Positions 2,583 to 9,776 of a stretch of DNA of 64,000 bases are shown one piece after another. The stretch is from the human T2T-CHM13v2.0 reference genome, Homo sapiens, in the NCBI GenBank assembly GCA_009914755.4, contig CP068257.2:16928001-16992000 (forward strand), read 5' to 3'. The notes below the pieces were generated by a model. That model worked only from the letters and a program-made list of their open reading frames with translations. It did no database searches and was not told where the DNA came from. Each line of letters starts with the position of its first letter. Position 1 is the first letter of the stretch. The position numbers and the translations under genes are program-made.

Positions 2583-3796
2583 TCTTTTTGCCTTTCTTTA
2601 TTTTCCTCCTGGCTGGCCTTCCATCCTTCCTTCCTTCCTTTTTTGGCGGACAACAATTCTATGGGCTTGAAAAGACATGTTTTTAAATGTAAGCTATTGT
2701 CTTTTATGTAATAAACAGATATCGAAAATTATACATCAGTTCAGGGAATCTATATAATCATTTAAAAAAATCTATGGTGCCAGGCACTTTACATCATCTT
2801 AATTCAAATTATTAAATTTTCACAATCACAGGGATAATAGCAGACCTAAGATTTGAACCCAACATTTTCAGCCTCCAATTATGATGTTTAATTTTTTTTT
2901 CTATATCACAGATTCCAGTTCATTTGGATAAGTAGAGATGAATAATTCAGTCATCACTGTCATTTGAACTAGGTAGGCCTCAAAAGAATATGAAAATTTT
3001 GATACATTGAGAAAGTATATGATACATTATGACCACTGAAAAATTTATAAGCGAATTTGGGATAAGGCAAGACATTCTCCATAAACAATATTCAATAAAT
3101 CTAATAAACTAAAAAGTTGTAAAATTTCCAATATAAATTTATGTAATTTGGGAGGAATAAATGTTTCTTTTTCTTATTATATATGTACTAAAACTTTTAA
3201 GAGAAAATATTTGAAAGTATCATCTTTTACATACAAAAATACAGTTTGGAAGTTAATTAATTGTACTGGGCAATAAAAAAAAATTAAGGTAACTTTCTTA
3301 AAAAGTCCACTAACTGTTATGCTGATGGCAATTTCAAAAGCACATCTTATTATCTAATACGAGAAGATTAATACCAACTAATGTATTTCCTGGTAAAGAT
3401 ATAACATGAATTTAGACCTATAAAGATAAAATTATAACTAATCACCAGAGATGAAAAATAATCTTACTTTTTTTTGAAATTACATTTGAAAATTTTAGAA
3501 AAATATATGTATTAAAACAAGTTTACTCTGTATGTAACTAAATCATCTAAAATATGCAAACATATTTAAAATGATTAAAGCTGCATTTTGATGATAATTT
3601 ACAACTATATGTATAACTACACAGAAGTCTTCAAATGAAAGTTAAAATATCCAAAAACTCATGTTTCATTCTATATTTACCTGTCACTAGGGAACCATGA
3701 TCTTCAGTTGGACTGTTTTTATTTGAGATTAGAGGAGGTTTAGAAAATTAGGAAAATTATAGGTTCCAAATAGAATATACAAATATAGTTGCCAAA

Positions 3797-3955
3797 GTAC
3801 AGAGATAGAGAGAGGAGAGAGAGAATGACAGAAAGAGAGAGAGAGAGAGAAGCAGGAAGAGAAGGAGGATGGGAATGGGAAGGAGGAGGAGGAGAAGGAG
3901 AAAGGGGAGGAGGAAGTTGGTGGAAGGGGAAGGGGAGGGGAGACAGAAATAAGAA
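3797..3955. repeat. Polypurine/polypyrimidine simple repeat (GA/GGA/GGGA-rich), ~160 bp
   Basis: agagatagagagaggagagagagaatgacagaaagagagagagagagaga…ggaaggggaaggggaggggagacag. Over 90% purine on the + strand. This creates the spurious 75-aa ORF 3789..4016. Confidence 0.9.
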
Positions 3956-4255
3956 AATCACCTTGATTGTGCTGGATATAGGCAGAAAGGAATATGTCAT
4001 AAGCATACAAATCTAACCCCTTAGTCTAATTTTTACATTTTAATTATAAATTCCACTTCTACATTTTCTTGTTAACAATTTCCAATAGACAATAAATTTG
4101 AATTGTTAGAATTAGGTGTTTCAAATCCAGTTCATTGTCTAATAGAGATTATGTTCAAGTTACTAATGGAAAAAATTATACCTTAATAGACCTCAAGTGT
4201 ATTATGGACTCAGGTAATTACTACCAAAAACTAAGGTTCTAATGGGCTACTCATC

Positions 4256-4798
4256 CTTTTTTTAAATTTTTATTTCCATAATTTTGGGGATACAGGTAGT
4301 TTTTTGTTACATGGATAAGTTCATTAGTGTTGATTACTGAGATTTTGGTGCACCTGCGATTTTGCTGCACCTGTCACTGGAGTAGTGTACACTATACCTA
4401 GTATGTCATCTTTTATTCCTTACTCCCCTTTCACTCTTCTGTCCTGAGTTCCCAAAATTCATTATATCGTTCTTATGCTTTTGCATCCTCATAACTTAGC
4501 TCCTACTTATAAGTCAGAACATACAGTATTTGGTTTTCCATTCCTGAGTTACTTTACTTAGAATAATGGCTTCCTGCTTCATCCAAGTTGCTGCAAAAGA
4601 CACTATTTCATTCCTTTTTATGACAGAGTAGTATTCCATAAGGTGAATATACCACATTTTTTTACCCACTCATTGGTTGATAGGCACTTAGATTGATTCC
4701 ACGTCTTTGCAATTGTGAATTGTGCTGCTATCAACATGTGTGTGCATGTGTATTTTTCATGTAATGAATTCTTTTTCTTTGGGTAGATACTCAGTAGT
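4256..4798 (-). mobile_element. L1 (older L1PA/L1PB-like) 3' UTR and ORF2 C-terminal region, antisense
   Basis: ttatttccataattttggggatacaggtagttttttgttacatggataagttcattagtg…ggtgcacc, then …acccactcattggttgataggcacttagattgattccacgtctttgcaattgtgaattgtgctgctatcaacatgtgtgtgcatgtg…gggtagatactcagtagtg. This matches the reverse complement of the L1 3' end (…ccattgatgggcatttgggttggttccaagtctttgctattgtgaatagtgccgcaataaacat…). Confidence 0.8.
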
Positions 4799-4799
4799 G

Positions 4800-4912
4800 A
4801 GAAAAAAATCAACAAAGTAAACAGATAACCCACAGATCGGGAGAAAATATTTGCAAACTATGCATCCAACAAAGGGCTAATAGCCAGAATCTACAAGCGA
4901 CTCAAACAAATC
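4800..4912 (+). mobile_element. Short sense-oriented L1 ORF2 patch embedded in antisense L1
   Basis: gggagaaaatatttgcaaactatgcatccaacaaagggctaatagccagaatctacaagcgactcaaacaaatcagcaagaaaaaaa matches sense L1 ORF2 (gaagaaaatatttgcaatctactcatctgacaaagggctaatatccagaatctacaatgaactcaaacaaatttacaagaaaaaaac). Its orientation is opposite to the flanking L1 segments. Confidence 0.55.
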
Positions 4913-5805
4913 AGCAAGAAAAAAATTAAATAGGATGTTGGCTGTGGGTTTGTCATACATGGCTTCGAGGTTTATTTTATTACTTTCAGGTAAATTCCTT
5001 CTGTTCCTATTTTGTTGAGGGTTTTTATCATAAAATGATGCTGGATTTTATCTAATGCCTTTGTTGTGTTTATTGAGATAATCATATGGTTTTTGTTTCT
5101 GTTTATGTGATGTTTTACATTTATTGACTTGCATATGTTAAACCATCCCTGCATCCCAGATCTGAAACCCACTTGATCATGTTGTGTTATCTTTTAGATA
5201 CACTGTTGGATTCGGTTAGCTAGTATTTCGTTGAGGACTTTTGCATCTGTGTTCATCAAGCATATTGCTCTGTAGTTTTCTTTTCTCTATTATGTCCTTT
5301 CCCGGTTTTCTATCATGGTGGTACTGGCTTTAACAAATGATTTAGGGAGAATTTTCTCTTTCTCTTTTTTTTGTTTTGTTTTGTTTTTGTTTTTCTTTTA
5401 ATAGTTTCTGTAGAATTCGTACCAATTCTTCTTTGAATGTCTGGTATAATTCAGCTGTGAATCCACCTGGTTCTGGACATTTATTTTTGTTGGGAATTTT
5501 TTAAATTACTGATTCAATCTCACTGTTTGTTACTGGTTTGTTCGAGATTTCTATTTCTTCTTGATTTAATCTAAGAGGGTTGTATACGGCCAGAAATTTA
5601 TCCAATTCCTTTAGATTTTCTAGTTTGTGTATGTAAAGATTTTCATAGTAGCACTGAATGATCTTTTGTATTTTTGTGGCATTGTAACATCTCCATTTTC
5701 GTTTAACATTGAGCTTTTTAAATCTTCTCTCTTCTTTACATGGTTAATCTCACTATTAGTCTATCAATTTTGTTTATCTTATCAAAGAACCACCTTTTGT
5801 TTCAT

Positions 5806-6003
5806 TTAGCTTTTGTATATATTTTTTTCAATTTCATTTAGTTCTGCTCTGATCTCTGTCATTTCTTTTCTTCTGCTGGTTTGGGTTTCGGTTTGTTCTT
5901 GTTTCTCCAGTTCCCTGAGGTGTGACATTAGGTTGTCTATTTGTGCTCTTTCAGACTTTTCGATGTAGGAATCTAATGCTATGAACTTTCCTCTTAGCAT
6001 CAC
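5806..6003 (-). pseudogene. L1 ORF2 remnant
   Basis: The translation …[57 protein letters not shown] matches L1 ORF2p (…[57 protein letters not shown]…). Confidence 0.7.
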
Positions 6004-6050
6004 TTTTGCTGTATGCTAGAGGTTTTGATGAGTTTTGTCATTAATATCAT

Positions 6051-6263
6051 TCAATTCAAATAATTTTTTAAAATTTCCATCCTGATTTCATTGTTAATCC
6101 CAAAATTTTTCAAGAGCCGACTATTTAATTTCCATGTATTTGTATAATTTTGAAGATTCCTTTTGGTGTTAATTTCCAGTTTTATTCCACTGTAGTCTGA
6201 GAAGATACTTGATATGATTTTGATTTTCATAAATTTATTGAGATTTGTTTTGTGGCCTGGCAT
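6051..6263 (-). pseudogene. L1 ORF2 remnant (endonuclease-proximal region)
   Basis: The translation MPGHKTNLNKFMKIKIISSIFSDYSGIKLEINTKRNLQNYTNTWKLNSRLLKNFGINNEIRMEILK matches L1 ORF2p (…SIFSDHNGIKLEINNKRNFGNYTNTWKLNNMLLND…). Confidence 0.7.
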
Positions 6264-6793
6264 CTAGTAGAGCTTGGAGAATGTTCCATGCACTGATGAG
6301 AAGAATGTCTCCTCTGCAGTTGTTGTGAAGAACGTTTGGTAAATATCTGTTAAGTTCATTTGTCCAGGGTATAGTTTAAGTTCACTGTTTCTTTGTTGAT
6401 TTTGTGTCTTGATGATCTGTCTAGTGCTGTTAGCAGAGTATTGAAGTCCCCCATTATTATTGTGTTGCTATCTGTCTCATTTCTTAGGTCTAATAGTAAT
6501 TGTTTATATATTTGGCAGCTCCTGTATTAGGTGCACATAAATTTAGGATTATAATATCTTCTTGTTGTGCTAATCCTTTTATCATGATTTGATGCCCTTC
6601 TTTGTCTTTTTTGTTTTAACTATTGTTGCTTTATAGTCTGTTTTGTTTGATATATGAATAGCTACTCCTTCTCGCTTTTGGTTTTCACTTGTGTAAAATA
6701 TATTTTTCTACCCCTTAGACTTAAGTTTATGTGAGTCCTTATGTGTTAGGTGAGTCTCTTGAAGACAGCAGATATTTTGTTGTCAGTTTTTAA

Positions 6794-7108
<315 letters not shown>

Positions 7109-8496
7109 CAGCCAATTCTGTATCTTTTTAGTGCAGCATTTAGGCTGCTTACATTCAATGTTAATATTGAGATGTGAGATATTGTTCTATTCATCATGTT
7201 AGTTGTTGCCTAGATACTTTCTTTTTATCATTCTGTTACTGTTTTATAGGTCTTGTGAGTTTTATGCTTTAAGGAGATTCTATTTTGGCATGTACCGAGC
7301 TTTTGTTTCAAGATTTAGAACTCCTTTTAACATTTCTTATAGTTCTGGTTTGGTAGTGGAAAATTCCCTTAGCATTTGATTCTCTGAAAACACAAGCAAA
7401 ACCAAGTTTGTCATTCATTTATGAAGCTTGGTTTTTCTAGATATAAAATTACTGACTGACAGTTATTTTGTTTGTGGTGGCTAAAGATAGGACCCCAATT
7501 CCTTCTGGCTTGTAAGGTTTCTGCTAATAAATCTGTTGTTAGTCTGATAGGTTTTCCTTTATAGGTTACCTGATGCTTTTGTCTCACAGCTCTGAAGATT
7601 CTTTACTTCATCTTGACTTCAGATAGCTTGACGACTATGTGCCTTGGTGATAATCTCTTTGCAATGAATTTCCCAGGAGTTCTTTGTGCTTCTGGTATTT
7701 GGATGTCTAGATCTCTAGCAAGGCCAAGGAAGTTTTTCTCCATTATTCCCTCAAATTGGTTTTCCAAATTTTCAGACTTCACTTCTCTCTCAGGAACACC
7801 AATTATTTTTAGGTTTGGCTGTTTTATGTATTCCTTTATTTCTTGGAGACTTTGTTTATTTTATTATTTCTTTTTTCTTTGCCTTTGACTGATTGGGTTA
7901 ATAAAAGCCTTGTGTTTAAGTTCTGAAATACTTTCTTCTACTTGTTCTAGTCTATTGTTGAAATTTTCCACTGCATTTTGTTTTTTCTTAAGTGTGTATT
8001 TCATTTCCAGAAATTCCTATTACTTTTTTCTTTATGATATCTATTTCTCTGGAGAAAAATTTATTCATATCCTGAATTTTTTTCTTAATTTCTTTAAGTT
8101 GCTTTTCACTTTTCTACAGTATCTCCTTGAGTAGCTTAATAATTAACTTTCTGAATTCTTTGGCATTTCAGAGATTTCTTCTTGATTTGAATCCATTGCT
8201 GGGGGGCTAGTGTGATCTTTTGGAGGTGTTATAGAGCTCTGTTTTGTCATATTACCAGACTTAACATTCTGGTTCTTTCTTATTTGGGTAGACTATTTCT
8301 TCACATTGTTCTTGAATTTATTTTTGATTGGACTTTTTTTTATTGCTTTTTTTCCCCTCTGAAGGATCTGACTTTAGTGTTTGTAGTTTATTTTAGCCTA
8401 ATTTGATTCTTGGTGCTTTTAGGGTTGAAGACTCAGTATGAGTTCCTTAGTTATAGAGCATCTTTGTACACTGGGTTTCCCAGATCCTAGTTGTAG

Positions 8497-8622
8497 TAGT
8501 TGTATACTTGGTGTGTGAGAAGGTTCACTGTATCCTATGGGATTGGAATCACAGGGATCTCTTGAAGCTTATCTTGTTCTCTTGTGGTGTACACTTTATT
8601 TATTTATTTATTTTATTTTTCC
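8497..8622. repeat. Copy 1 of a ~125-bp locally duplicated segment (copy 2 lies inside MADE1 at 9619-9744)
   Basis: gtgtgtgagaaggttcactgtatcctatgggattggaatcacagggatctcttgaagcttatcttgttctcttgtggtgtacactttatttatttatttattttatttttcc. It is about 95% identical to 9619-9744. Confidence 0.85.
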
Positions 8623-9582
8623 CAAGTAGTTTATTTACTCAGTTGATGATTCAGGCTCCAAGCCAATAGGGGAGGTATTTCTGGGTAGGCATCAGTTGTA
8701 GCTAAAGCAGGTGGGTAAATGTAATAACCAATGTTGGGCAGAGGTCTTAGCCTTGATGAAGGTGACTCCTGGAGCTCTTAATTAGATGGCTTTATCAGGG
8801 TGAAGGATGGGAGCTACGTCAGCTCCCATGCCAGACCAGCAGGAAAGCTATCCACCTCACAGCCTCACTCTTGTCCCAGTAGTCTGACTATTCAGATCAC
8901 ACAGGAACTTCTTTTCATCTGTAGGAATGTGAATGTTCCAAATAGGGAGGAATTGTTACTCTCAATTTTGATATTGCCTTCCTTTCTGGATATGGAATGT
9001 ATCTACGCATATGAAAGCTTCAAATGTTTTTAATTTATGATTATCATATTGTTACTAAATGACCATAGAACAGTAAATTGCACAATTAAAATGAATTTTA
9101 GCCAGTTTGTGTGACAAAGAAGGAGGAGGTAATAAAGAATCAAGTGAAATGCGTTCAAAACTGTTTTACCTCTCTGCACCAAAGCATTGACCTAGAATCA
9201 CATTCTAAAGAAGATCTTTCTAATCAACTTCTCTAGAAATAAACAAAAACAACTTCATTGAATTCTCAACACAAGAATCCCTGCCTCACAAGGGAACCTG
9301 TACCAATTGCAGCATGTCTGAACTCAGTGATAGAGTGGGATGTTTGGCTAGCACCAATGTGGAGTTACAGAATTCTCCTGCCCATTTTCTTTCTTAGTAC
9401 TCCTCTCTCTACACTGAGATCCATAAACTTCTGTTCTGGATGTCCCAGCTTGGTTTACTATTCTCTTTATCAAACTTTATTACCATTTTATAAATTCTTC
9501 AGTCACCATTACAATAATATCATATACTTTATTTGCCAAGGGACATATAAACCATGCATGCATGTCAGGTTTACTCTTGATA

Positions 9583-9776
9583 TTATGTTGGTGCAAAAGT
9601 AATGGTATTTTTGCCATTCGTGTAGTTGGTGTGTGAGAAGGTTCACTGTATCCTATGGGAATGGAATCGCACGGATCTCTTGAAGCTTATCTTGTTCTCT
9701 TATGGTGTACACTTTATTTATTTATTTATTTATTTTATTTTTCCATTTTTGCCATTACTTTTGCACCAACCTAATA
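9583..9776. mobile_element. MADE1 (Hsmar1-derived mariner MITE) with a 125-bp internal insertion
   Basis: The left end ttatgttggtgcaaaagtaatggtatttttgccatt and right end atttttgccattacttttgcaccaacctaa match the MADE1 palindrome TTAGGTTGGTGCAAAAGTAATTGCGGTTTTTGCCATT…TTTTGCACCAACCTAA. Flanking TA dinucleotides are present. Confidence 0.65.
9619..9744. repeat. Copy 2 of the ~125-bp duplicated segment, located between the two halves of MADE1
   Basis: cgtgtagttggtgtgtgagaaggttcactgtatcctatgggaatggaatcgcacggatctcttgaagcttatcttgttctcttatggtgtacactttatttatttatttatttattttatttttcc. Confidence 0.85.

What the first reader, a model, noticed from the sequence alone, without database searches (positions are those of the whole stretch)
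8497..9776. MADE1 mariner MITE whose interior has been replaced by a 125-bp filler copied from 1.1 kb upstream
The 34-bp left and 32-bp right ends of a MADE1/Hsmar1 palindrome (9583-9618, 9745-9776) flank a 125-bp segment (9619-9744) that is ~95% identical to 8497-8622. That upstream copy sits at the probable 5' edge of the antisense L1, in the same orientation. The central MADE1 palindrome core is missing. This is the signature of abortive gap repair after transposase-induced breakage, where an internal deletion is filled with templated DNA from a nearby ectopic donor. Such footprints are well described for Ac/Ds, P and Mos1 elements but are rarely pointed out for human Hsmar1-derived elements. 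The very low divergence between copies suggests the event is much younger than the MADE1 family itself (~40-50 Myr), or that the copies have since exchanged sequence.
Basis: partly seen in the sequence, partly recalled or inferred. Interest (0 to 1): 0.5.

Follow-up and report, generated by a model that had tools for sequence, protein, structure and literature searches.

The report
Local DNA patch inserted into MADE1
A 125-base piece of a neighbouring old L1 element was copied into the middle of a small mariner-type palindrome (MADE1) when a chromosome break was repaired, which is an ordinary and already catalogued kind of repair scar in primate genomes.

Summary
Window 9620-9744 is a same-orientation copy of 8502-8622, with 6 substitutions and one TTTA-unit indel. 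It sits between the two ends of a MADE1 (9583-9774) that has TA duplications on both sides.

The interpretation needs correcting in three places:
- The insert is flanked by an exact 12-nt direct repeat of MADE1 sequence (ATTTTTGCCATT, 9607-9618 and 9745-9756), plus one untemplated C (9619). This makes it an insertion with a target-site duplication, not a replacement of the core.
- With the insert and one repeat copy removed, a 54-nt perfect hairpin remains. It matches MADE1 with a 25-nt deletion between two 9-nt direct repeats.
- The donor lies inside the 5'UTR region of the antisense L1, not at its edge. An unrelated L1 copy aligns straight through both donor borders.

There is no poly(A) tail and no L1 endonuclease site. 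The size (125 nt), distance (1.1 kb), TE acceptor, filler and duplication all fit the "repair-mediated duplications" of Pace et al. 2009. That study found 824 proximal cases and illustrated one inside a MADE1 with a flanking duplication.

What caused the break (Hsmar1 transposase, hairpin fragility or chance) cannot be decided here. The age is about 15-34 Myr (range 5-70), so "much younger than MADE1" is unproven. Interest is low.

The parts
4258..8649 (-). Old, degraded L1 on the minus strand, with an Alu nested near 6750-7050. The 3' poly(A) is read as poly(T) from 4258. The true 5' end was not determined: 8649 is only the last position shown to be L1-family sequence.
   Evidence: Pfam hits on minus-strand ORF fragments: Tnp_22_dsRBD at 7411-7587 (E 2.6e-10), Transposase_22 at 7603-7782 (E 4e-13), and RVT_1 at 4972-5172 (weak). 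ORF2-like fragments appear and the poly(T). L001 aligns to 8212-8649. No L1 target-site duplication was found in 8400-20000.
8502..8622 (+). Donor (copy A): a 121-nt internal piece of the L1 5'UTR region, about 250-370 nt upstream of the ORF1 start on the L1 sense strand. It consists of a 93-nt body plus a (TTTA)n/T-rich tract.
   Evidence: Alignment to copy B. A separate L1 copy (L001) is collinear through both borders of this segment, so A is original L1 sequence and not itself an insertion.
9581..9582 (.). Left TA target-site duplication of the MADE1
   Evidence: Read directly. It is part of inverted-repeat arm I1.
9583..9618 (+). MADE1 left part. It aligns to consensus positions 1-37, with one substitution near the tip and a cluster of changes at the CpG-containing TGCGG.
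   Evidence: Alignment, ITR core search, published ITR core. MADE1 copy and consensus lines are shown in Pace et al. Fig. S1.
9607..9618 (+). Copy 1 of the 12-nt duplication ATTTTTGCCATT (MADE1 positions 26-37)
   Evidence: Exact-match search (only two occurrences in the window). Background rate of such repeats.
9619..9619 (+). Single untemplated (filler) C at the left junction. A possible 2-nt TT microhomology lies just before it.
   Evidence: Three-way alignment. The C is absent from the donor flank (…AGTT|GTATAC) and from MADE1.
9620..9744 (+). Acceptor insert (copy B): a 125-nt copy of 8502-8622 in the same orientation, with one extra TTTA unit
   Evidence: A and B share 17 states that differ from L001. 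B has 4 private changes, A has 1 (loss of a CpG), and 1 is unresolved.
9745..9756 (+). Copy 2 of the 12-nt duplication ATTTTTGCCATT
9745..9774 (+). MADE1 right part: consensus positions 26-43 joined to 69-80. This equals a 25-nt deletion between the two ATTACTTTT direct repeats.
   Evidence: After removing the insert and one duplication copy, the remaining 54-mer folds as a perfect 21-bp hairpin (-21.7 kcal/mol, z = -9.4).
9775..9776 (.). Right TA target-site duplication of the MADE1
   Evidence: Read directly

Best explanation
This is a repair-mediated local duplication, also called a templated patch insertion.

Proposed sequence of events:
1. A MADE1 inserted at a TA site about 1 kb from the 5' region of an older antisense L1.
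2. The MADE1 was probably already shortened to 54 nt by slippage between its two ATTACTTTT repeats.
3. The chromosome later broke near the tip of the MADE1 palindrome.
4. During repair, a 3' end primed synthesis on the L1 5'UTR 1.1 kb upstream and copied 121-125 nt.
5. The extended end was rejoined to the other side of the break without useful homology.

This left one untemplated C and a 12-nt duplication of the target. The duplication arose either from filled-in staggered ends or from overlapping repair synthesis from the two ends. The structure has no function; it is a scar that destroys the MADE1 hairpin.

Shown: the copy direction A to B, the insertion-with-duplication anatomy, the absence of a poly(A) tail and of an L1 endonuclease site, and the fit to a published class.

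Inferred: the repair pathway (synthesis-dependent strand annealing followed by end joining), that the 25-nt MADE1 deletion was a separate event, and the cause of the break.
For: - Anatomy: MADE1 1-37 | C | 125-nt copy of 8502-8622 | MADE1 26-43/69-80, with the exact 12-nt duplication abutting the insert. That fit is not chance.
- Direction of copying: L001, an unrelated L1 copy, is collinear with the window from 8212 to 8649 across both borders of A, whereas B matches only within 9620-9744.
- Local origin: A and B are 93.5% identical in the 93-nt body and share 17 states that differ from L001. A and B are only 77% and 79% identical to L001.
- Reconstruction: the 54-mer left after removing the insert is a perfect hairpin. 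The median MADE1 length in hg38 is 68 bp, so shortened copies are common (PMC8327481).
- Fit to a known class (Pace et al. 2009, PMC2671141). That study reports 824 proximal duplications interrupting TEs, median 147 bp, donor-acceptor distance peaking near 1.2 kb, and none with poly(A). Junctions show microhomology, filler of 1-68 nt, deletions or TSDs of 4-21 nt, and 6 of 39 inspected proximal cases carry a TSD.
- MADE1 precedents: Table S1 lists six MADE1 acceptors, among them chrX:125681305 (87 bp, donor 1257 bp upstream, 6.0% divergence, catarrhine-specific). Fig. S1 shows a human-specific case inside a MADE1, with the repeated motif cattacctttaatggca marked on both sides of the insert.
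Against: - No orthologous empty site could be examined, so the order of the events and the single-step nature of the insertion are inferred.
- The junctions show almost no microhomology (at most TT, and that is separated from the insert by the filler C). This fits end joining better than the annealing step of textbook SDSA.
- The 12-nt duplication is also what L1-type staggered nicking produces.
- Only one outside family member (L001) was available. That B is closer to A than to any other L1 copy in the genome is therefore likely but not demonstrated.
- MADE1 looks over-represented among published acceptors, which argues that the break may not have been a random one.
Confidence: 0.7

Rival explanations
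1. Hsmar1 transposase excised this MADE1, and the gap was repaired from the sister chromatid. Repair synthesis from the left end switched template to the nearby L1 and copied 125 nt. The product was then joined to synthesis coming from the right end. In this version the deletion, the filler and the 12-nt overlap all arose in one aborted gap-repair event.
For: - Both termini and both TA duplications are intact.
- Independent synthesis from the two ends could itself create the 12-nt overlap, and slippage could create the deletion, so one event would explain three anomalies.
- The age range of 5-70 Myr overlaps Hsmar1 activity.
- MADE1 and HSMAR1 acceptors appear more often in Pace et al. Table S1 than their small genome share predicts.
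Against: - The element's interior is not replaced: 12 nt are duplicated, and the core ACTTTT is still present to the right of the insert.
- The same footprint is found in Alu, L1, LTR and MIR acceptors, which never excise.
- At least two published MADE1 cases are younger than the New World monkey split, and one is human-specific. These arose long after Hsmar1 transposase was lost, so the transposase is not needed.
- The point estimate of 15-34 Myr is younger than the roughly 40-50 Myr activity period cited in PMC9062482.
Confidence: 0.13
2. Replication-based template switching (FoSTeS/MMBIR type). A fork stalled at the MADE1 hairpin. The nascent strand disengaged, copied 125 nt from the region 1.1 kb behind, and returned 12 nt upstream of where it had left, which created the flanking duplication.
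For: - The acceptor site is at the tip of a very stable hairpin (-21.7 kcal/mol for the 54-mer and -45.7 kcal/mol for the 80-mer).
- The copy is in direct orientation from a nearby template.
- A "return behind the exit point" naturally produces a short flanking duplication.
Against: Neither switch shows the 2-5 nt microhomology typical of this mechanism. One junction also carries an untemplated base. With the data available here, this model cannot be told apart from break repair.
Confidence: 0.1
3. An L1 ORF2p-mediated event (class 1 templated insertion). The L1 endonuclease made the 12-nt staggered nicks, and a fragment of L1 5'UTR RNA, or a cDNA of it, was inserted.
For: A 12-nt duplication lies in the usual L1 range of 7-20 nt. 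The inserted sequence is L1-derived. TSD, poly(A) and a TTTT/A site are the defining features of class 1 (PMC5110952).
Against: - There is no poly(A) at either end in either orientation. The T-rich tract is templated from the donor, and on the L1 sense strand it lies at the 5' end of the insert.
- The nick sites read AAGT/AATG and TGGT/ATTT, not TTTT/A.
- An internal 5'UTR fragment without any 3' end is not what 5'-truncating target-primed reverse transcription produces.
- In Pace et al., none of the 39 inspected proximal duplications showed retroposition features.
Confidence: 0.05
4. Copy B did not come from copy A. Instead it came from another, closely related L1 copy elsewhere, or the high A/B identity reflects later gene conversion between independently derived segments.
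For: The segment does belong to a dispersed repeat family, since L001 is a homologue from an unrelated source.
Against: A and B are 93.5-95% identical, against 77-79% to the only other member found, and they share 17 derived-or-private states in 93 nt. The L1 is old and degraded. Proximity within 5 kb is the rule for this class.
Confidence: 0.02

Closest known systems
[quoted passage not shown]
   Same: - A 50-619 bp copy of nearby DNA inserted into a TE, with the donor within 5 kb (distance peak about 1.2 kb; here 1.1 kb).
- Median size 147 bp (here 125 bp).
- No poly(A).
- Junctions with filler, microhomology, deletion or a TSD of 4-21 nt (here a 12-nt TSD plus 1-nt filler).
- MADE1 acceptors are listed, and one is illustrated with a duplication flanking the insert at the MADE1 centre.
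   Different: The donor here is itself part of a repeat (L1 5'UTR). Their pipeline states that it systematically excluded such cases, so this locus may not be in their catalogue. It was not seen in the parts of Table S1 that I read. Junction microhomology is minimal.
Class 2 templated sequence insertions / TSIPs (Onozawa & Aplan, PMC5110952)
   Same: A break is patched with a copy of sequence templated from elsewhere in the genome, without a poly(A) tail or an L1 endonuclease site.
   Different: Class 2 TSIPs are described as coming from distant regions, with evidence that they are RNA-derived, and as lacking target-site duplications. Here the template is 1.1 kb away in cis and a 12-nt duplication is present.
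Abortive gap repair with filler DNA after cut-and-paste transposon excision (described for Ac/Ds, P and Mos1; a proposed origin of MITEs, e.g. PMC3814204)
   Same: Both termini and target duplications are retained, the interior is altered, and ectopic templated DNA lies between the ends.
   Different: The interior is interrupted and partly duplicated, not replaced. The same footprint occurs in non-excising TEs. Transposase involvement cannot be shown, and the published MADE1 precedents that postdate Hsmar1 activity show it is not needed.
L1-mediated insertions (class 1 TSIPs, orphan transductions)
   Same: The target-site duplication length lies in the L1 range, and the inserted sequence is of L1 origin.
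   Different: There is no poly(A) tail and no TTTT/A site. The insert is an internal 5'UTR fragment, not a 3' end or a downstream flank.

Membership tests
Repair-mediated duplication (Pace et al. 2009) | An insertion of at least 50 bp splits an annotated TE, and the two fragments abut in consensus coordinates (within +/-30 bp) | tested here: met
   A 138-nt stretch (12-nt duplication + C + 125 nt) lies between MADE1 position 37 and position 26.
Repair-mediated duplication (Pace et al. 2009) | Parental copy on the same chromosome within 5 kb, and more than 50 bp away | tested here: met
   Donor 8502-8622 and acceptor 9620-9744: start-to-start 1118 nt, gap 997 nt
Repair-mediated duplication (Pace et al. 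2009) | No added poly(A)/poly(T) tail of 5 nt or more at an end of the insert | tested here: met
   The T-rich end of B is present in the donor and in the unrelated L1 copy L001, so it is templated
Repair-mediated duplication (Pace et al. 2009) | Breakpoint signatures of imperfect break repair (microhomology, filler, deletion, TSD) | tested here: met
   12-nt TSD, 1-nt filler C and a possible 2-nt TT microhomology.
Repair-mediated duplication (Pace et al. 2009) | The insert is found at only one other place in the genome | tested here: inconclusive
   Only two copies in the 64-kb window. One diverged L1 homologue (77-79% identity) exists elsewhere. No genome-wide search was possible.
Repair-mediated duplication (Pace et al. 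2009) | An empty pre-insertion site in an outgroup species | not testable with these tools
   No primate genomes were reachable. The protein-database routes found nothing.
MADE1 (Hsmar1-derived MITE) | Two inverted Hsmar1-type ITRs | tested here: met
   TTGGTGCAAAAGTAAT is exact on both arms in inverted orientation, and these are the only two matches in the window. The 19-nt core matches with 3 mismatches on the right arm. The arms are 96% complementary.
MADE1 (Hsmar1-derived MITE) | TA target-site duplication | tested here: met
   TA at 9581-9582 and at 9775-9776
MADE1 (Hsmar1-derived MITE) | 80 bp: two 37-bp TIRs around 6 bp (PMC1784062) | tested here: not met
   The element is 192 nt as found, and 54 nt after removing the insert and one duplication copy. 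It is therefore a rearranged and shortened copy. Shortened copies are common (median 68 bp).
Abortive gap-repair product of transposase excision | Internal element sequence is lost at the site where filler DNA is found | tested here: not met
   At the filler, the element sequence is duplicated (12 nt), not lost. The 25-nt loss maps between two 9-nt direct repeats to the right of the insert.
Abortive gap-repair product of transposase excision | The event dates to the period of transposase activity | tested here: inconclusive
   K2P distance 0.068, giving 15-34 Myr with a 95% range of 5-70 Myr
L1 ORF2p-mediated insertion (class 1 TSIP) | Target-site duplication | tested here: met
   12 nt
L1 ORF2p-mediated insertion (class 1 TSIP) | A poly(A) tail at the 3' end of the insert | tested here: not met
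   Neither strand ends in an added A-run
L1 ORF2p-mediated insertion (class 1 TSIP) | Insertion at a 5'-TTTT/A-3' site | tested here: not met
   The nick contexts are AAGT/AATG (minus strand) and TGGT/ATTT (plus strand), read.

The most novel reading that the evidence does not exclude
MADE1 palindromes may be preferential sites of germline breakage, through hairpin or cruciform formation or through SETMAR binding and nicking. If so, they attract repair-mediated duplications far more often than their size predicts, and this locus would be one more example.

The rough numbers are as follows. Six MADE1 acceptors appear among 1,136 catalogued events. From MADE1's share of TE DNA, about 0.2-0.5 would be expected. 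That estimate uses 2,679 paired-ITR copies with a median of 68 bp against roughly 1.4 Gb of TEs. At least two of the MADE1 cases postdate Hsmar1 activity.

The estimate is uncontrolled for detection bias in palindromic, RepeatMasker-split elements.
Probability: 0.2. Interest if true: 0.45.

Novelty: new member of a known kind. Interest (0 to 1): 0.12.

Why it matters
As a single locus it matters little. It is one more fixed scar of imperfect break repair, a class with more than 800 described human examples, and it has no evident function beyond destroying a potential mir-548-like hairpin.

It has two modest uses. First, it shows that donors lying inside repeats exist; the published screen excluded these by design, so the class is under-counted. 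Second, together with the published MADE1 cases, it raises a testable question: are short perfect palindromes such as MADE1 hot spots for germline breaks?

Tried and rejected
- **Rfam scan of 8300-10000.** No mir-548/MADE1 hit, because the insert splits the hairpin. Only chance-level matches were returned.
- **Exact-protein look-ups and a homology search with ORFs spanning the locus.** I tried these to reach orthologous primate loci. Nothing was found, since the databases do not hold such non-coding ORFs.
- **Scans of metagenome, genome and viral contigs for contaminating mammalian DNA.** One useful hit came back (L001, an L1 fragment chimerically joined to a bacterial contig). Two were chance matches (L002, L003).
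- **End of homology at window 8649.** L001 turns into bacterial sequence at that point, so this reflects the chimeric join and cannot be read as the L1 5' end.
- **blastn against the plasmid and phage collections.** No match.
- **Search for the L1's own target-site duplication, to fix its 5' end.** Not found.
- **Copy A as an insertion.** It has AGTAGTT on both sides, so I considered this. I rejected it because L001 is collinear through both borders.
- **Copy A as an L1/flank junction or 3' transduction.** Rejected for the same reason: the A-rich tract is internal L1-family sequence.
- **Tandem duplication followed by deletion.** Rejected because it cannot keep both ATTTTTCC and ATTTTTGCCATT at the right junction.
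- **Looking for this exact locus in Pace et al. Table S1, by distance values and by reading parts 7, 9 and 10.** Not found. Three of the six MADE1 rows were seen (chr18, chrX:21376673, chrX:125681305), and none matches this locus.
Full report
**1. What is in the sequence**

Window 8502-8622 (121 nt, copy A) and 9620-9744 (125 nt, copy B) align in the same orientation. They differ by six substitutions and one extra TTTA unit in B. Homology begins at 8502/9620, slightly inside the coordinates given. The non-microsatellite body of the segment occurs only at these two places in the 64-kb window.

Copy B lies between two inverted Hsmar1-type terminal repeats. The 16-mer TTGGTGCAAAAGTAAT overlaps the published ITR core GGTGCAAAAGTAATTGCGG (PMC8327481). 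It occurs exactly twice in the window, at 9588-9603 (+) and 9754-9769 (-). The arms are 96% complementary. The element spans 9583-9774 and is bounded by TA at 9581-9582 and 9775-9776, the mariner target-site duplication. It is therefore a genuine transposed MADE1. The canonical form is 80 bp, with two 37-bp TIRs around 6 bp (PMC1784062).

**2.

The insert is bracketed by an exact 12-nt direct repeat, ATTTTTGCCATT, at 9607-9618 and 9745-9756. These are the only two occurrences in the window. One extra C (9619) sits at the left junction.

Outside one minisatellite, the window holds only about a dozen exact direct repeats of 12 nt or more at 50-300 nt spacing. A repeat that fits both borders of an independently defined insert is not chance.

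The repeat corresponds to MADE1 positions 26-37. The sequence to the right of the insert, ATTTTTGCCATTACTTTTGCACCAACCTAA, is MADE1 left-arm plus core (26-43) joined to the last 12 nt (69-80). This rests on the consensus recalled from memory. That consensus is corroborated by the ITR core and by the MADE1 copy and consensus lines in Fig. S1 of Pace et al..

Removing the insert, the C and one repeat copy leaves a 54-mer, TTATGTTGGTGCAAAAGTAATGGTATTTTTGCCATTACTTTTGCACCAACCTAA. It folds as a perfect 21-bp hairpin (-21.7 kcal/mol, z = -9.4). It equals MADE1 with a 25-nt deletion between the two ATTACTTTT direct repeats of the consensus. Shortened MADE1 copies are common: the median length in hg38 is 68 bp.

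So the core was not replaced by filler. A 125-nt patch was inserted with a 12-nt target duplication and 1 nt of filler. The missing 25 nt lie to the right of the insertion point and have a simple explanation of their own.

**3. What the donor is**

Minus-strand ORF fragments from about 4500 to 8000 are L1 ORF2 and ORF1 remnants. The Pfam hits are Tnp_22_dsRBD at 7411-7587, Transposase_22 at 7603-7782 and a weak RVT_1 at 4972-5172. The poly(A) tail is read as poly(T) from 4258.

A scan of bacterial genome contigs with a 22-mer from the segment returned L001, a contig of an "Ignavibacterium" MAG. Its last 403 nt are mammalian L1 sequence joined chimerically to bacterial DNA. That fragment aligns with window 8649-8212 at 77% identity. 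The alignment runs without interruption through both borders of copy A and through the T-rich tract.

Three points follow:
- Copy A is original L1 5'UTR-region sequence, about 250-370 nt upstream of the ORF1 start on the L1 sense strand. It is not an insertion.
- Copy A is not at the L1's 5' edge, because family homology continues at least 27 nt further. The real 5' end could not be fixed: L001 becomes bacterial at that point, and no L1 target duplication was found.
- The T-rich end of the insert is templated. It is not a tail.

In the 93-nt body, A and B differ at 6 sites but share 17 states that differ from L001. B is only 79% identical to L001. B was therefore copied from A, or from something nearly identical to it, and the direction was A to B.

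**4. Mechanism**

There is no added poly(A) or poly(T) in either orientation. The two nick contexts implied by the duplication (AAGT/AATG and TGGT/ATTT) do not resemble the L1 endonuclease site TTTT/A. An internal 5'UTR fragment is also not what 5'-truncating target-primed reverse transcription yields. The criteria for L1-mediated insertions are taken from PMC5110952. An L1-mediated origin is therefore unlikely despite the 12-nt duplication.

The features match the repair-mediated duplications of Pace, Sen, Batzer and Feschotte (PMC2671141) point by point:
- They are insertions that split TEs.
- The donor lies within 5 kb, with a distance peak near 1.2 kb.
- The median size is 147 bp.
- None of the 39 inspected proximal cases has a poly(A) tail.
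- Junctions carry microhomology, filler of 1-68 nt, deletions or duplications of 4-21 nt.
- 6 of the 39 carry a duplication.

Their Table S1 lists six MADE1 acceptors. One is chrX:125681305, with an 87-bp insert, a donor 1257 bp upstream, 6.0% divergence and a catarrhine-specific distribution. Their Fig. S1 shows a human-specific case inside a MADE1, with the same short stretch of the MADE1 centre marked on both sides of the insert.

My best reading is as follows. A double-strand break formed near the tip of the MADE1 palindrome. One 3' end primed synthesis on the L1 5'UTR 1.1 kb away. The extended end was rejoined by end joining, since there is almost no junction microhomology and one untemplated base. 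The 12-nt duplication comes from filled-in staggered ends or from overlapping synthesis from the two ends. A replication-fork template switch at the hairpin would give the same product and cannot be separated from this here.

**5.

Excision by Hsmar1 followed by aborted gap repair is a special case of the same repair process. It differs only in what made the break, and in claiming that the core was replaced.

In its favour:
- Both termini are intact.
- One error-prone repair event could in principle create the overlap, the filler and the slippage deletion together.
- MADE1 looks over-represented among published acceptors.

Against it:
- The same footprint is common in Alu, L1, LTR and MIR acceptors, which never excise.
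- At least two published MADE1 cases postdate the split from New World monkeys, and one is human-specific.
- The element's sequence at the filler is duplicated, not lost.

I give this model about 13%.

**6. Age**

Six differences in 93 nt (3 transitions, 3 transversions; K2P 0.068) give about 34 Myr at 1e-9 per site per year and about 15 Myr at 2.2e-9. The Poisson 95% range is about 5-70 Myr. The statement that the event is much younger than the MADE1 family is therefore not established.

Four of the six changes are private to B and one to A (a CpG loss). This asymmetry is not significant.

**7. Novelty and score**

The kind of event is well described, including in MADE1. This particular locus may not be catalogued, because the published pipeline excluded repeat-derived donors by design. 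I did not find it in the parts of Table S1 that I read. I rate it a new member of a known kind, with low interest (0.12).

The only lead with some wider interest is the apparent excess of MADE1 among acceptors. Six appear among 1,136 events, against roughly 0.2-0.5 expected from MADE1's share of TE DNA. This is my rough estimate from numbers, and it is uncontrolled for detection bias. The excess would suggest hairpin-driven or SETMAR-related fragility. I give that reading about 20%.

**8. Limits**

- No primate orthologues, no genome-wide search and no repeat library were available.
- The MADE1 consensus beyond the published 19-nt core comes from memory, supported by the alignment lines.
- Only one outside L1 copy was found.

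Noticed in passing
window 18744-19149: A minisatellite with a period of about 50-52 nt, about 8 copies and 93% matches (unit GGCACGCCATTCCCTGTTACCTGCATCAGTGACTGATCAGAATGGGGTAA). It also shows a higher-order period of 154 nt.
   Followed up: partly
window 19752-19812: A 61-nt A-rich run (86% matches to poly-A). It is probably the tail of a retroposed element.
   Followed up: no
L001 3664-4066 (JAIMAZ010000277.1, 'Ignavibacterium sp.' MAG): The last 403 nt of this bacterial MAG contig are mammalian L1 5'UTR/ORF1-start sequence joined to bacterial coding DNA. This is contamination or a chimeric assembly in a public genome.
   Followed up: partly
Pace et al. 2009 Table S1 (PMC2671141), not in the window: Six MADE1 acceptors and at least one HSMAR1 acceptor appear among 1,136 repair-mediated duplications. 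This looks roughly 10-40 times more than expected from MADE1's share of TE DNA. The source paper does not discuss it.
   Followed up: partly
window 6750-7050: An Alu is nested inside the antisense L1, between its ORF2 N-terminal fragment and the rest of ORF2. This is inferred from Alu-like ORF translations and from repeats of 7000-7130 elsewhere in the window.
   Followed up: no
window 3780-3960: A purine-rich, low-complexity GA/GGA tract lies just beyond the L1 3' end.
   Followed up: no
window 9603-9612: The left arm of this MADE1 carries a tight cluster of about four changes relative to the consensus (AATTGCGGTTTTT becomes AATGGTATTTTT), at the CpG-containing part of the SETMAR-binding core. 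As a result the 19-nt core does not match on the left arm even with 3 mismatches allowed.
   Followed up: no
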